DNA of 41,956 nt from a virus (lineage: Duplodnaviria; Heunggongvirae; Uroviricota; Caudoviricetes), in IMG/VR virus record IMGVR_UViG_2718218133_000008, positions 1 through 41,956 of that record; one strand, written 5' to 3'. Below, in pieces: positions 30,001-33,000 of this stretch (position 1 is its first letter; each line of letters begins with the position of its first letter). Made by a program: the position numbers.

Positions 30001-33000
30001 TTTGATGTTGTTAATCGCGGTACGGCTGTATCGTTCGCGCTGCTCGACGATCCCCAGCTTCACCATCTGGTGATATGCCTGATTAGCCGTCAGGCGGATA
30101 CCATACTGCTTCAGCAGTGCACTCAGTGACAGCGTGGGGCGGCTTGAGCCATCAGGCGCGTCAGCAGGAGCATCAATGGCATAGCGCGGTGCCAGATTCG
30201 GTAAGCCAACAGCCTCCTGGAGTTTCTGACAGGCCCCAAGCACTGAAGAGTTAGACAGGTTTAACTCCCTGCGCATAAAGTCCAGCAGAATCACACCAGC
30301 CTGCATCTTGTCAGCAGCCTGCCCGGATAATTTTTCCGGTGCGCTGGTTACCATATCGAAAGTACGGATCACCTTCAGATGGAATGACGGGCTGATCCAC
30401 ATTGCATAGGCATACACCAGTTCCTTGCAGACATACGTTCCCCGTTCATTTCCCCCATGAATCACACTCACCGGGTCAACACCCAAATTCTGGGTGTTGG
30501 TCAATTCATGAACAAGCTCAACAGTTTGTTGGCTGGAAAGAAACTTTCCTGGCTCCTTGGTTCTGGCATTTGCACCAGATGCTACTGCTGCGCGATGCAG
30601 ATCGTTCAGGCTGTAACGTCCATAAGCATCACGACGAACTTCAATACCATCAATGACCATCAGATTATTCATACTTCGTTTCTCCTCTTAATCAGGCGGC
30701 TGCACCCGCCGTTTTCTCGTACTTACTGATAGTGATCTCGACCTTCCCTTTCGGGATAACCGGTCCCCACTCCACCAGCATTCTTTTCACCTGTCTGTCG
30801 TCTTCCCACACACCCGCGTGGGTCAGGGCGTCAAACAGCGCCTTGTTATAGTTGTCCAGATCACGGATCCGGTTATCCGGCGGAAACAACACGATCTCCA
30901 CTGAAGCAGGTGCCGACGTTGGTTTCGGCAGACGACGTAACTGCTCAACTATTGCTGCGCACGCCGCGCTCTGAAATTTTCGCCCCGCCTCGCTTATCAG
31001 GCTCTTACCAGCAAATGCCCCTTTGTTGGGGTGTCGCCAGTACGTGTTCACACTGGGCGGGAAAGGAAGGATCAACTTCATACTTTCAAGCCCCTCTCAT
31101 GTAACCAGTGGGCTGCACGCAACCTGGCGTTCTCCTCACCGGCAAGCAGTGCGCGGATGATACCGACCGCTTCGCTGTCGTCGTCCTTCACTGCGGTATG
31201 AAGCGTGATCCCCCGGGCCACGCCACGCTTTATCGTGATGACGCCTTTTTTCTCCAGTGCGCGAAGATGCTCTACCGCTGCATTCACTGAACGGTATCCC
31301 AGCATGGTTGCCACCTCCTGATTGGTTGGCGGAAAGCCACGCTCTTGCTGGTAAGAAATCAGCATATCCAGCACCTGCTGCTGGCATTGAGTTAACGTCG
31401 TCATGCCGCCATCTCCCTGACAAGTTTTTCTGCCTGCTGGCGAATCTGCGCCAGAAACGCCTCACCACATGCCTCAAGTTCATCGCGCCCGATGTAGCTG
31501 ATTGCCGGTCCCTTCCAGGTCTTGTCGAAAACAGCAATAGCACCAGCGAAGAAAGCGCCTGTCGGCACCTGCTTCTCATCCTTCGGGATAAACCAGGCAG
31601 GCAGTTCAAAACCAATACGCCCGCGAATAAAAGCAATATGGTCTGCATCTTCCGGCCACCAAACTTCGCTGGTGGCAGCTTTGATCAGGAAAACATAGCG
31701 CCCGCCCTTATCACGCATGGCACTGGCATGCTTCATGATGTAACGCATGCCGGTGATGTATTGCCCCTCATGCTGACTGGCGCGGCTGTATGGGGGATTA
31801 CCAAAGGCAGCACCTTTAAGCTCCGCAAGACGTTCTGACCAGTCATGCGCCAGCGCATTGTCTTCCGCAGTGTAATAAGCGGCACATTTGGCGTTATCAC
31901 CATCAGTGAACAGATCCAGAACAAACGGGCCAAACAGGGTGTTAATTCCCCAGAAAATGTTATCCGGCGTGCGCCACTGATCGCCCACTTCCTTCAGTTC
32001 ATGGGCTGGTTTGTTCCGCAGTTCTACCAGCGCCTGGCAATATTTATTACTCATTAAGCCCCCACGTAAAAAGCATCCGCAATGTCTCCGGAAGTACAGC
32101 CCGGATGGGCTTCAATGAATTTCTGAACGTCATTTAACAGACTCATGATCACCCCCTGAATCCTGCCGGGATCTGGCTGTAGTCCACGTTGTCGTAACTG
32201 GCTTTGAAGTACGGGTCTTCACGTTTTTCTGTGTGCGTGCTGACGGACGGCGATAAGCGCAGGGAAAGCTCATCCCATTTTTCCCGCAACTTCGACGGGC
32301 TGAGCACGTTACGGCACCAGAACGGATCGCGGCTGACGCGGCTGTACATCTCGCAGATTTGTTTGTGAGTACGACCATCCTGCACACACATCAGGCGAAT
32401 TTCGTTTGCCCAGGCTGTCCAGTTCGGTTCTTTGGGACGAACCACCTCGCCGTCACATTCGGCGGCCTGCTCGTACAGGGCGATGATTTTTTTCCAGAGC
32501 CACTGTGCGCAGGTCAAATCATCCTGCGTTCCCCACTGGCGCTTTTTATGGCTGAATACAACCGCATCAGGATGGCGAGTTAAAAACTCCTGTTCAGCCG
32601 TTTGCGTGTCCGGTTGCGAAGCGTCCGGACGAGAAGAGGTTTTATTCTCTGTAGTAATCTCTGTTGTATTCTCTGTAAGATCATTGGGCCATTTTGACCC
32701 GATGACAGCGTGTCGTTTTGAACCAATGGATCGTGTCATTTTGCGCCCATCCATCAGGTAACTTTGACCCGATGGAGAAGTGCATTTTGACCTGATGGAT
32801 TCGTTCACTTTGACCTCTTCTAAAAGCTCACTTTCATAGTTGATCGTGTAGAAGTTGGTCATGTCACGCTTCGATTTATTGAGTTGCTCGCGACGCAAAA
32901 CCCCAAGTGATTTCAGGCTTGCAAATGTGCGTTTCAGAGTGGACTCTGACCAGAACGGAAACTGCTCCAGCCACTGTTCTGTCGTGTTATAAACCCAGCG

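What the first reader, a model, noticed from the sequence alone, without database searches (positions are those of the whole stretch)
32641..32815. Origin of replication embedded in the replication initiator gene: iteron array plus AT-rich repeats
Seen in sequence: five to six roughly 18-bp-spaced iterons (TTTTGACCCGATGG-like) next to an AT-rich stretch with attctctgta-type repeats, all inside the O-like gene, as in lambda ori. The coding strand translates the repeats into a low-complexity linker (NDLTENTTEITTENKTSS).
Basis: partly seen in the sequence, partly recalled or inferred. Interest (0 to 1): 0.4.

Follow-up and report, generated by a model that had tools for sequence, protein, structure and literature searches.

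The report
Phage replication origin inside initiator gene
This stretch is very probably the replication origin of a lambda-like E. coli phage, sitting inside the gene for its own initiator protein; that layout is ordinary, but its three 12-base repeats are a DNA motif conserved in phage and plasmid initiator genes across bacterial phyla, and I found no description of it.

Summary
The repeats are real and lie where stated, inside a 330-aa O-like initiator gene on the minus strand (32149-33141) of an mEp460-like lambdoid phage. One detail is wrong: the six iterons are spaced 23 bp apart, not 18 bp.

- **Order along the gene.** It matches lambda ori: winged-helix N-domain, iterons (32683-32821), three AT-rich 12-mers (32641-32676), then a lambda-O-like C-domain.
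- **Constraint is on the DNA, not the protein.** The iterons are read in all three frames. Third-codon-position identity to a diverged relative is 83-100% in the repeats against 45-51% in the flanks.
- **Iterons track the N-domain.** Phages with the same C-domain but a different N-domain carry different iterons at the same place.
- **Unexpected part.** The 12-mer ACAGAGAnTAC recurs directly after 23-bp-period iterons of unrelated sequence, in initiator genes from Proteobacteria and Firmicutes. Its codons are fixed against host bias, and in one plasmid it is read in two frames. It marks the least stable DNA of the gene, so it is probably a sequence-specific unwinding element.

There is no P or DnaC gene, and the protein ends in a DnaT-like tail. 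Nothing here is tested experimentally.

Verdict: a lambda-type origin, a new variant of a known kind.

The parts
32149..33141 (-). O-like replication initiator gene (330 aa) that contains the origin
   Evidence: The ORF is listed. It matches PHROG 391 'replication initiation O-like' over its full length at E 1e-99. It is 98% identical to the mEp460_4F5 gene annotated 'Primosomal protein I'.
32815..33141 (-). N-terminal winged-helix domain (aa 1-109), the presumed iteron-binding module
   Evidence: The AlphaFold2 model has mean pLDDT 85.3 and the topology H-H-E-E-H-H-E-E. Its best PDB matches are generic winged-helix proteins, all at E 0.02 or weaker. There is no Pfam or NCBIfam hit. tblastn finds relatives in 116 phage and 90 plasmid records across phyla.
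32683..32821 (-). Six iterons with a 23-bp period. Gene-strand consensus is TcCATcGGGTCAAAATGAC; the CAAA centre is invariant and dyad symmetry is only partial.
   Evidence: Evidence is. The units are read in frames 2, 1, 0, 2, 1, 1. Third-codon-position identity to HannyBb is 83%, against 51% in the N-domain and 45% in the C-domain. Arm complementarity is 2-4 of 5.
32641..32676 (-). Three tandem 12-mers, ACAGAGAATACA ACAGAGATTACT ACAGAGAATAAA on the gene strand. Presumed DNA-unwinding element; encodes TENT TEIT TENK.
   Evidence: The repeats are shown. A 45-nt run invariant in all five aligned genes covers the array (32640-32684), where the two groups are otherwise about 73% identical (702/966 aligned positions). 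This is the least stable 36-bp stretch of the gene. The motif is conserved across phyla at DNA level. The gene strand is 72% purine, read directly from the sequence.
32260..32595 (-). C-terminal domain homologous to the lambda O C-terminal domain
   Evidence: BLASTP against lambda O gives E 7e-27 and 33% identity over 148 aa. tblastn of lambda O places the match at 32595-32260 with E 1e-22. The window from 32149 to about 32651 is shared at 97% identity with SfII/SfIV-type phages whose N-domain differs.
32152..32178 (-). C-terminal tail SQIPAGFRG, matching the C-terminal nine residues of E. coli DnaT (SQIPPGFRG)
   Evidence: The match is 8 of 9 residues, and both sequences lie at the extreme C-terminus. 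Similar tails occur on relatives with other C-domains.
34335..34363 (-). pR-like promoter whose leftward transcript would run through the cro-like, cII-like and O genes, and so through the origin
   Evidence: This is a consensus scan only: TTGACC, 17-nt spacer, TAACAT. Its position lies between divergent cI-like and cro-like ORFs.

Best explanation
Window 32641-32821 is the vegetative origin of replication of an mEp460-like lambdoid phage, built like lambda ori and embedded in the initiator gene.

**Shown by sequence and comparison**
- The gene encodes an N-terminal winged-helix domain, then six 23-bp-spaced iterons, then three 12-bp ACAGAGAnTAC repeats, then a lambda-O-like C-domain.
- The repeats are constrained as DNA.
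- The iterons change together with the N-domain.
- The 12-mers are the least stable duplex in the gene.

**Inferred mechanism**
1. Initiator molecules, probably dimers, bind the iterons through the N-domain. Because 23 bp is about two helical turns, they lie on roughly one face of the helix and form an O-some-like complex.
2. The resulting strain, helped by leftward pR-type transcription through the gene, opens the adjacent 12-mer tract.
3. The initiator probably captures one strand of that tract in a sequence-specific way. This would explain why its sequence is conserved far beyond plain AT-richness.
4. The C-domain and the DnaT-like tail then bring in host DnaB-DnaC, because the phage has no P, DnaC or DnaB gene of its own.
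For: **Anatomy and significance**
- Repeats and their statistics.
- The order of parts is collinear with lambda ori, and the C-domain is homologous to lambda O.

**DNA-level constraint**
- The iterons are read in three reading frames.
- Third-position identity to HannyBb-type genes is 83% in the iterons and 100% in the 12-mers, against 51% and 45% in the flanking domains.
- A 45-nt run invariant in all five aligned genes covers the 12-mers.

**Module co-variation**
- SfII-type genes share the C-half at 97% identity but have an HTH_36-type N-domain and different iterons with a 15-bp period at the same spot.
- Within the family, the iteron arm (GGT, GGG, GGA or GAT) tracks residues of the predicted recognition helix.

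**Family-wide architecture**
- In 8 of 8 loci chosen only by N-domain similarity, the iterons are followed by ACAGAGAnTAC.
- A scan of viral contigs for the tandem motif gave at least 120 stretches. I estimate well under one by chance for 20 specified bases; this is my own rough figure, not a tool result.
- All 80 fetched hits lie in the same reading frame. Nearly all sit mid-way through ORFs of initiator length; the exceptions are contig-edge cases, one giant-virus contig and L155.
- 37 of 41 distinct contexts have a best period of 22-24 bp just upstream of the motif, against 2 and 3 of 41 in control segments of the same genes.
- Ten ORFs that carry the motif but do not match the N-domain model all hit replication-initiation PHROGs.

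**Codon test on ten genes chosen by protein similarity only**
- Glu is GAG in 20 of 20 motif codons, against 107 of 211 elsewhere (p 4e-6).
- Thr is ACA or ACT in 44 of 46, against 72 of 177 elsewhere (p 1e-12).
- The most variable motif position is a second codon base.
- A Lactobacillus gasseri plasmid spaces the motif at 10 and 11 bp, so it is read in two frames.

**Stability**
- The 12-mers coincide with the least stable 36 bp of the gene in 9 of 10 genes.

**Established models this follows**
- The lambda origin lies in the middle of O, and O binds AT-rich single-stranded DNA (PMC7466680).
- Initiator binding opens an adjacent A+T region and captures one strand, and the exact sequence of the unwinding element matters (PMC5043065).
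- Plasmid Rep proteins bind one strand of their 13-mers (PMC10797057).
Against: - There is no experiment on this phage or on any member of this N-domain family that I could find.
- The N-domain has no Pfam, NCBIfam or PDB sequence match, and only weak generic winged-helix fold matches. DNA binding is therefore inferred.
- Two of the six iterons are degenerate, and dyad symmetry is weak at 2-4 of 5.
- The 12-mer tract is only moderately AT-rich (GC 0.30). It ranks 527th of 41,920 36-bp windows for instability across the whole window, and the cI/cro intergenic region is less stable.
- In an AT-rich Staphylococcus phage, the motif is not the stability minimum.
- The high identity of the repeat region with HannyBb-type genes could partly be a recombination patch rather than selection.
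- The codon and covariation tests use related sequences, so their p-values are optimistic.
- In every tandem-motif hit from the viral-contig scan the 12-mers are read as T-E-x-T, so a protein-level or RNA-level role cannot be fully excluded.
- No helicase loader is encoded, so helicase recruitment is conjecture.
Confidence: 0.8

Rival explanations
1. The iterons are real initiator-binding sites but serve autoregulation, copy-number control or exclusion (titration or handcuffing). Replication would start elsewhere in the genome.
For: Iterons have such second roles in plasmids, which is established knowledge. No replication data exist for this phage. The 12-mer tract is not the least stable DNA in the window.
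Against: No other iteron-like array exists in the window, and only one stray match to the iteron consensus is found. The arrangement of iterons plus an adjacent repeated low-stability tract, collinear with lambda ori, is the arrangement of a start site. The same pairing recurs in 37 of 41 independent contexts.
Confidence: 0.08
2. The conserved 12-mers act at the RNA or protein level, or as a junction for module exchange, rather than as an unwinding element. Candidate roles are a T-E-x-T linker, a translational pause between the two domains, or a short shared sequence that lets N-domain/origin modules recombine with C-domain modules.
For: All 80 tandem-motif hits are read in the same T-E-x-T frame. 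The mosaic junction with SfII-type genes falls at about 32651, at the 3' edge of the 12-mer array. The C-domains downstream of the motif are of several unrelated kinds: lambda-O-like, Phg_2220_C and DnaB_2.
Against: Codons are fixed against host bias in hosts with third-position GC from 31% to 76%. The amino acid at x varies among I, N, T and S while its first and third bases stay fixed. Degenerate flanking units keep CAGAGA while the residue changes to A, P or S. In the L. gasseri plasmid the motif is read in two frames. A locus with iterons and 12-mers but no N-domain ORF exists (L155). Conservation from Staphylococcus to Pseudomonas phages cannot be explained by recombination convenience. 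The RNA-level reading is not excluded by any of these tests.
Confidence: 0.08
3. The repeats are only coding repeats of a low-complexity linker and have no DNA-level role.
For: The region encodes a hydrophilic, probably disordered linker between two domains.
Against: The 23-bp period is not a multiple of three, and the copies are read in three frames. Silent sites are conserved only here. The iterons change with the N-domain.
Confidence: 0.02

Closest known systems
Lambda ori (and the six-iteron origins of Stx phages 933W and P27)
   Same: The origin sits in the middle of the initiator gene. The order is N-domain, iterons, AT-rich tract with a purine-rich sense strand, C-domain. Iteron spacing is about 20-24 bp. 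Each iteron has an A-tract centre flanked by partly symmetric arms (lambda TCCCTCAAAACGAGGGA; here GGGTCAAAATGrCCC). The C-domains are homologous. Transcription from a pR-type promoter runs through the origin.
   Different: The N-domain belongs to another family: Pfam PF04492 is not hit. There are six iterons at a strict 23-bp spacing. The unwinding tract is three copies of a specific 12-mer, ACAGAGAnTAC, whereas lambda-type genes carry a different purine-rich motif, ACAAAAGACA. There is no P gene, and the protein ends in a DnaT-like tail.
Iteron-plasmid origins (RK2 oriV, F oriS, R6K, pPS10)
   Same: Iterons are spaced about two helical turns apart and lie next to an unwinding element made of short repeats. 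In RK2 there are four 13-mers whose exact sequence is required, and the initiator binds one strand of them (PMC10797057). This is the best model for what the 12-mers do.
   Different: Plasmid origins are non-coding and usually carry DnaA boxes. Here the origin is coding, and no DnaA box lies within 700 bp. The initiator has no Rep_3 or other Pfam match.
RepA_N plasmids of Gram-positive bacteria, and phage replisome organisers with internal origins (SPP1 G38P/oriL, TP901-1 ORF13). These are cited from my own knowledge.
   Same: The origin repeats lie inside the initiator gene, between an N-terminal winged-helix DNA-binding domain and a C-terminal host-interaction domain. Staphylococcal RepA structures (4pql, 5kbj, 4pt7) appear among the fold matches.
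   Different: The fold matches are weak (E 0.06-0.2), and no sequence-level family membership was found. I am not aware that the 12-mer motif has been reported for these systems.

Membership tests
Lambda-type origin (ori inside gene O) | The origin lies inside the initiator gene, between the parts that code for the N- and C-domains | tested here: met
   The iterons fall at aa 107-153 and the 12-mers at aa 156-167 of a 330-aa ORF. The lambda layout is given.
Lambda-type origin (ori inside gene O) | Four or more direct repeats, each an imperfect inverted repeat, bound by the initiator | tested here: inconclusive
   Six repeats at 23 bp are present. Arm symmetry is only 2-4 of 5. Binding cannot be tested with these tools.
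Lambda-type origin (ori inside gene O) | An AT-rich, strand-asymmetric tract directly downstream of the iterons | tested here: met
   GC is 0.30. This is the least stable 36 bp of the gene. The sense strand is 72% purine, read from the sequence.
Lambda-type origin (ori inside gene O) | The initiator N-domain belongs to Pfam PF04492 (Phage_rep_O) | tested here: not met
   There is no Pfam hit even at E up to 10. BLASTP against lambda O aligns only the C-half.
Lambda-type origin (ori inside gene O) | The initiator C-domain is homologous to the lambda O C-domain | tested here: met
   E 7e-27, 33% identity over 148 aa. tblastn gives E 1e-22.
Lambda-type origin (ori inside gene O) | A partner helicase-loader gene (P or DnaC-like) or a helicase gene lies next to O | tested here: not met
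   The next genes downstream are Dam methylase, a LexA-DBD-like gene and RusA. tblastn of lambda P and E. coli DnaC finds nothing significant in the window. No search with a DnaB query was run; the absence of a DnaB gene rests on the neighbouring genes and on the annotation of closely related phages.
Lambda-type origin (ori inside gene O) | The segment supports initiator-dependent replication | not testable with these tools
   This needs cloning or marker-frequency analysis.
Iteron-plasmid origin (Rep_3 / RepA type) | Iterons spaced about 22-23 bp apart, next to an unwinding element of short repeats | tested here: met
Iteron-plasmid origin (Rep_3 / RepA type) | The initiator belongs to the Rep_3 two-winged-helix family, and the origin has DnaA boxes | tested here: not met
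   No Pfam hit. The model shows a single winged helix. The nearest DnaA-box-like site is at 33498 and has one mismatch.
Phage/plasmid initiators with 23-bp iterons plus ACAGAGAnTAC 12-mers (a group delineated here, not a curated family) | The N-domain matches the profile built from relatives, a 22-24-bp-period array follows directly, and two or more tandem CAGAGAnTAC units then follow on the sense strand | tested here: met
   The window gene is the founding member of the profile, so this test is circular for the window itself. Independent members: 8 of 8 tblastn-selected loci, 51 of 80 motif-selected ORFs, and 37 of 41 contexts with the period.

The most novel reading that the evidence does not exclude
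The ACAGAGAnTAC repeats are an undescribed, sequence-specific origin element. They are shared by a very large group of phage, prophage and plasmid initiator genes in Proteobacteria and Firmicutes, with variants in Bacteroides and Vibrio phages. They are always placed directly after 23-bp iterons of whatever specificity, and before whatever helicase-recruiting domain follows. On this reading, the melted 12-mer strand is read by a conserved surface of this winged-helix initiator superfamily, or by a universal replisome component. Origin opening in these replicons would then use one common 'key', while origin choice is set by the variable iterons.
Probability: 0.4. Interest if true: 0.7.

Novelty: new variant of a known kind. 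Interest (0 to 1): 0.5.

Why it matters
For this phage, the result simply locates the origin and the specificity module of its initiator.

More broadly, it gives a sequence signature that pinpoints replication origins in thousands of uncharacterised phages, prophages and phage-plasmids: an array with a 23-bp period followed by CAGAGAnTAC repeats inside a gene.

It also offers a clean natural system for an open question in replication initiation, namely whether the unwinding element is read in a sequence-specific way. Here the element is held constant while both the iterons and the helicase-recruiting domain vary.

The lack of any loader gene, together with a DnaT-like tail, suggests a way for lambdoid phages to recruit host DnaB-DnaC without a P protein.

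Tried and rejected
**Searches that found nothing useful**
- Pfam and NCBIfam on the whole protein and on each half gave no hit.
- A PDB sequence search gave no hit.
- A Foldseek search of PDB gave only a generic winged helix, at E 0.02 or weaker.
- Rfam on 32000-33400 gave nothing, so no known RNA family explains the conservation.
- DnaA boxes: none near the origin.
- Lambda P and E. coli DnaC by tblastn: absent from the window.
- Literature searches found nothing relevant. I searched for the 12-mer DNA strings, for the TEITTE-type peptide strings, and for iterons combined with replisome organiser or DnaD-like terms. This covers only the open-access library, so it is not proof that the motif is undescribed.
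- pBMB165 was checked as a possible experimentally studied member. Its replicon is of the pAMbeta1 type and is unrelated.

**Approaches that fell short**
- The search for related loci with the N-domain alignment returned only close relatives at 78% identity or more. I obtained diversity instead from tblastn hits and from a DNA-pattern scan.
- The bare heptamer TTTGACC as an iteron marker is not enriched.

**Ideas considered and not adopted**
- That lambda's TCAGAGAATTCT (S-E-N-S, same frame, just after its AT-rich tract) is a homologue of the 12-mer. The resemblance is 9 of 10, but lambda-type genes have their own distinct conserved purine-rich motif.
- That a universal host factor must read the 12-mer. 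This became less compelling once each initiator class turned out to have its own conserved unwinding motif.
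Full report
**1. What is there**

The finding lies inside a 330-aa ORF on the minus strand, 32149-33141. That ORF matches PHROG 391, 'replication initiation O-like', over its full length at E 1e-99. It has no Pfam or NCBIfam hit.

The window is an mEp460-like lambdoid phage or prophage of E. coli. The gene is 98% identical to that of mEp460_4F5, and the surrounding 22 kb matches mEp460-type phages at 95-98%. Upstream lie cI-like, cro-like and cII/YmfL-like genes. Downstream lie Dam methylase, a LexA-DBD-like gene and RusA.

Read on the gene strand, the region holds six units with the core CCATCrGGTCAAAATG, starting at 32821, 32798, 32775, 32752, 32729 and 32705. The spacing is therefore 23, 23, 23, 23 and 24 bp. 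After five bases come three tandem 12-mers, ACAGAGAATACA ACAGAGATTACT ACAGAGAATAAA, at 32676-32641.

The '18-bp spacing' is wrong.

The array is not chance:
- A 16-mer consensus with up to 3 mismatches hits four times in 110 bp. The expectation is 0.56 for the whole window on both strands.
- Tandem Repeats Finder reports both arrays, and no other iteron-like array in 42 kb.
- The bare heptamer TTTGACC alone is not enriched.

**2. The repeats are constrained as DNA**

The 23-bp period is not a multiple of three, so the six iterons are read in frames 2, 1, 0, 2, 1, 1. They give unrelated peptides (SIRSKC, PSGQS, MDGRKM and so on).

HannyBb-type genes are about 73% identical to the window's gene over the whole alignment (702/966 positions). 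BLAST gave about 78% over the part it aligned. Against these genes, identity at third codon positions is:

| Region | Third-position identity |
|---|---|
| N-domain | 51% |
| C-domain | 45% |
| Iterons | 83% |
| 12-mers | 100% |

A 45-nt run that is invariant in all five aligned genes covers the 12-mers. Across the two groups, the centre CAAA of every iteron is invariant and the spacer positions vary. A recombination patch could contribute to this pattern, but it does not explain the 23-bp periodicity of conservation.

**3. The iterons go with the N-domain**

SfII, SfIV and many other phages share the 3' half of the gene at 97% identity (window 32149 to about 32651). They have a different N-domain of the HTH_36 type. 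At the same position they carry a different repeat, TGACCCGTCAAAAT, with a 15-bp period. The mosaic junction falls at the 3' edge of the 12-mers. This is the classical lambdoid pattern of an 'N-domain plus origin' specificity module joined to an exchangeable C-domain.

The N-domain (aa 1-109) models confidently as a winged helix, with mean pLDDT 85.3. Only generic winged-helix proteins match it in PDB, at E 0.02 or weaker.

Among 60 distinct N-domains of this family, the iteron arm tracks residues at the start of the predicted recognition helix:
- GGT(C) goes with ...WS-ES-T-L/I-KR.
- GGG(C) goes with (S/V)D-T-V/I-KRAL.
- GGA(C) goes with ERTIKR.
- GAT(C) goes with IPTIRR.

This is suggestive only, because the sequences are related.

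**4. Comparison with lambda**

BLASTP aligns aa 147-294 with lambda O aa 135-270 at E 7e-27. The N-halves do not align.

In lambda the annotated iterons start at 39034, 39054, 39078 and 39101, giving spacings of 20, 24 and 23 bp. They are followed by the AT-rich tract. The order of parts, and the purine-rich sense strand of the AT-rich tract (72% purine here), are the same as in the window.

The lambda paradigm is taken from two reviews read:
- PMC7466680: the origin lies in the middle of O; iterons bind O; the AT-rich tract is where unwinding occurs; O binds AT-rich single-stranded DNA.
- PMC5043065: the initiator opens an adjacent unstable tract and captures one strand; the exact sequence of the unwinding element matters; lambda's tract is strand-asymmetric.

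**5. The unexpected part: the 12-mer is a conserved DNA motif**

*Loci chosen by protein similarity.* tblastn with the N-domain alone finds 116 phage and 90 plasmid records across phyla. I fetched eight phage loci chosen only by that protein similarity: Klebsiella, two Pseudomonas, Erwinia, Pantoea, Staphylococcus and Geobacillus phages, plus a second Klebsiella phage.
- All eight carry ACAGAGAnTAC in the stretch just downstream of the N-domain coding part. Six have 2-4 tandem copies and two have a single copy.
- The repeat finder reported 22-24-bp iteron arrays in four of them: Klebsiella Kp4884-3, Erwinia PEp14, Pantoea AH07 and Staphylococcus phiIPLA88. It reported none in the other four.

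With 20 specified bases I estimate well under one hit by chance in a collection of order 10^11 bases; this is my own rough figure, not a tool result.
- All 80 fetched hits lie in the T-E-x-T frame. Nearly all sit mid-way through ORFs of initiator length; the exceptions are contig-edge cases, one giant-virus contig and L155.
- 51 of the 80 ORFs match the N-domain profile. Ten of the others, scanned against PHROGs, all hit replication-initiation families.
- Among 41 distinct contexts, the 150 bp just upstream of the motif has its best self-similarity at 22-24 bp in 37 cases. In two control segments of the same genes the figures are 2 and 3 of 41.
- The iteron sequences themselves are quite unrelated between contexts.
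- The usual copy number is three: 27 of 44 contexts.

*The conservation is at DNA level.* In ten genes chosen by protein only, with third-position GC from 31% to 76%:

| Codon choice | Inside the motif | Elsewhere in the gene | p |
|---|---|---|---|
| Glu as GAG | 20 of 20 | 107 of 211 | 4e-6 |
| Thr as ACA or ACT | 44 of 46 | 72 of 177 | 1e-12 |

Further points in the same direction:
- The 'x' codon is A-n-T (Ile, Asn, Thr or Ser). Its middle base varies while its first and third bases are fixed. In an unconstrained third unit, the most variable position is that second codon base.
- Degenerate flanking units keep CAGAGA while the residue changes to Ala, Pro or Ser.
- In the Lactobacillus gasseri plasmid pHL20_1 the units are spaced 10 and 11 bp apart, so they are read in two frames (P-E-I-T-R-D-Y-S-E-I-T).
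- More remote members keep the motif: a Clostridium botulinum plasmid, a Selenomonas plasmid and Acinetobacter phage Abp95.
- Bacteroides and Vibrio phages have variants (CAGATAGTA, CAGATGTAA). Two remote plasmids are unclear.

*The motif marks unstable DNA.* The 12-mers coincide with the least stable 36 bp of the gene in 9 of 10 genes. They are not the least stable DNA of the whole window, where they rank 527th of 41,920.

*Literature.* Searches of the open-access library for the DNA and peptide strings found nothing relevant.

*Other initiator classes.* Lambda-type (PF04492) O genes have their own conserved purine-rich motif at the same place: ACAAAAGACA, or ACAAGAACAAGA in phi80-like genes. 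A class-specific, sequence-conserved unwinding element therefore seems to be general.

**6. Mechanism**

*Shown.* The anatomy, the DNA-level constraint, the coupling between iterons and N-domain, and the stability minimum.

*Inferred.*
1. The N-domain binds the iterons. They lie two helical turns apart, on roughly one face of the helix.
2. The complex, with help from transcription from the pR-like promoter at 34363-34335, opens the 12-mer tract.
3. One strand of that tract is held in a sequence-specific way. The precedents are plasmid Rep proteins on their 13-mers (PMC10797057) and lambda O on AT-rich single-stranded DNA.

*Helicase recruitment is the weakest step.* No P or DnaC homologue is found in the window by tblastn, and no helicase gene is annotated next to O here or in close relatives. 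No DnaB query was run. The protein ends in SQIPAGFRG, matching the last nine residues of E. coli DnaT (SQIPPGFRG). Similar tails sit on relatives with other C-domains. I therefore guess that the protein recruits host DnaB-DnaC directly or through restart-primosome partners.

**7. Rivals**

- *Pure coding repeat.* Contradicted by the frame and silent-site data.
- *Regulatory binding array with the start site elsewhere.* Not excluded, but there is no other candidate array in the window, and the pairing with an unwinding tract argues for a start site.
- *Protein-level role for the 12-mers.* Disfavoured by the codon and frame data.
- *Recombination-junction role for the 12-mers.* Disfavoured by their phyletic breadth.
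- *RNA-level role for the 12-mers.* Cannot be excluded computationally.

**8. Verdict**

This is a real feature, and very probably the phage's origin. It works like lambda ori, but it is not a member of the lambda O N-domain family and has no P partner.

I file it as a new variant of a known kind. The conserved 12-mer element and its fixed partnership with 23-bp iterons are the part worth following up.

Noticed in passing
window 32152-32178 (minus strand); also L002, L006 and L010 gene ends: The initiator ends in SQIPAGFRG, matching the C-terminal nine residues of E. coli DnaT (SQIPPGFRG). Similar tails (IPPGFRG, VPAGFRS, VPHGFRG) end relatives whose C-domains are of a different kind. The tail looks like a portable docking peptide.
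   Followed up: partly
window 30692-32148: No P, DnaC-like or DnaB-like gene follows the initiator; Dam methylase, a LexA-DBD-like protein and RusA do. tblastn with lambda P and E. coli DnaC finds nothing significant anywhere in the window.
   Followed up: partly
window 32055-32148: Only a 94-bp gap separates the initiator gene from the Dam gene. In mEp460_4F5 and SfII a gene of about 489 bp sits at this spot; it is annotated 'transcriptional activator' in SfII, and the corresponding genes in SfIV and Pantoea AH07 are annotated PerC-type. It appears to be deleted or never acquired here.
   Followed up: no
window 32679, 32729, 32842: There are three GATC sites in and around the origin. One lies exactly between the last iteron and the first 12-mer (GATCTTACAGAG), and this junction recurs in several enterobacterial relatives. 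The phage encodes its own Dam methylase.
   Followed up: no
L155 11000-11460 (IMG/VR 3300017658_000175): Iterons plus 12-mers occur here without any N-domain ORF, directly after a 1036-aa tape-measure-like gene. A second 12-mer array lies in inverted orientation about 200 bp away. This may be an orphan or decoy origin.
   Followed up: no
L219 543-575 (Lactobacillus gasseri plasmid pHL20_1): The motif is spaced at 10 and 11 bp instead of 12 bp (CCAGAGATTAC CAGAGACTACT CAGAGATTACA). It is preceded by clear 23-bp iterons, GGAAAAAAGTTCCGAATCGAAGA.
   Followed up: partly
L215 821-880 (lambda), L224-L228: Lambda-type O genes carry their own conserved purine-rich motif after the iterons: ACAAAAGACA, or ACAAGAACAAGA in phi80-like genes. 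Lambda and phi80-like genes also share TC(A/C)GAGAATTCT, read S-E-N-S, which resembles one copy of the 12-mer.
   Followed up: partly
window 3087-3540: This is the only other tandem repeat in the window. It has a 189-bp period with 2.3 copies and nested 21- and 42-bp periods. It lies inside a 784-aa ORF on the minus strand (1711-4065), presumably a repetitive structural protein.
   Followed up: no
whole window: DnaA-box-like 9-mers (TTATCCACA with up to 1 mismatch) occur 19 times against 9.7 expected, and 0 of 100 shuffles reach 19. None lies near the origin; the two perfect copies are at 7378 and 25194.
   Followed up: no
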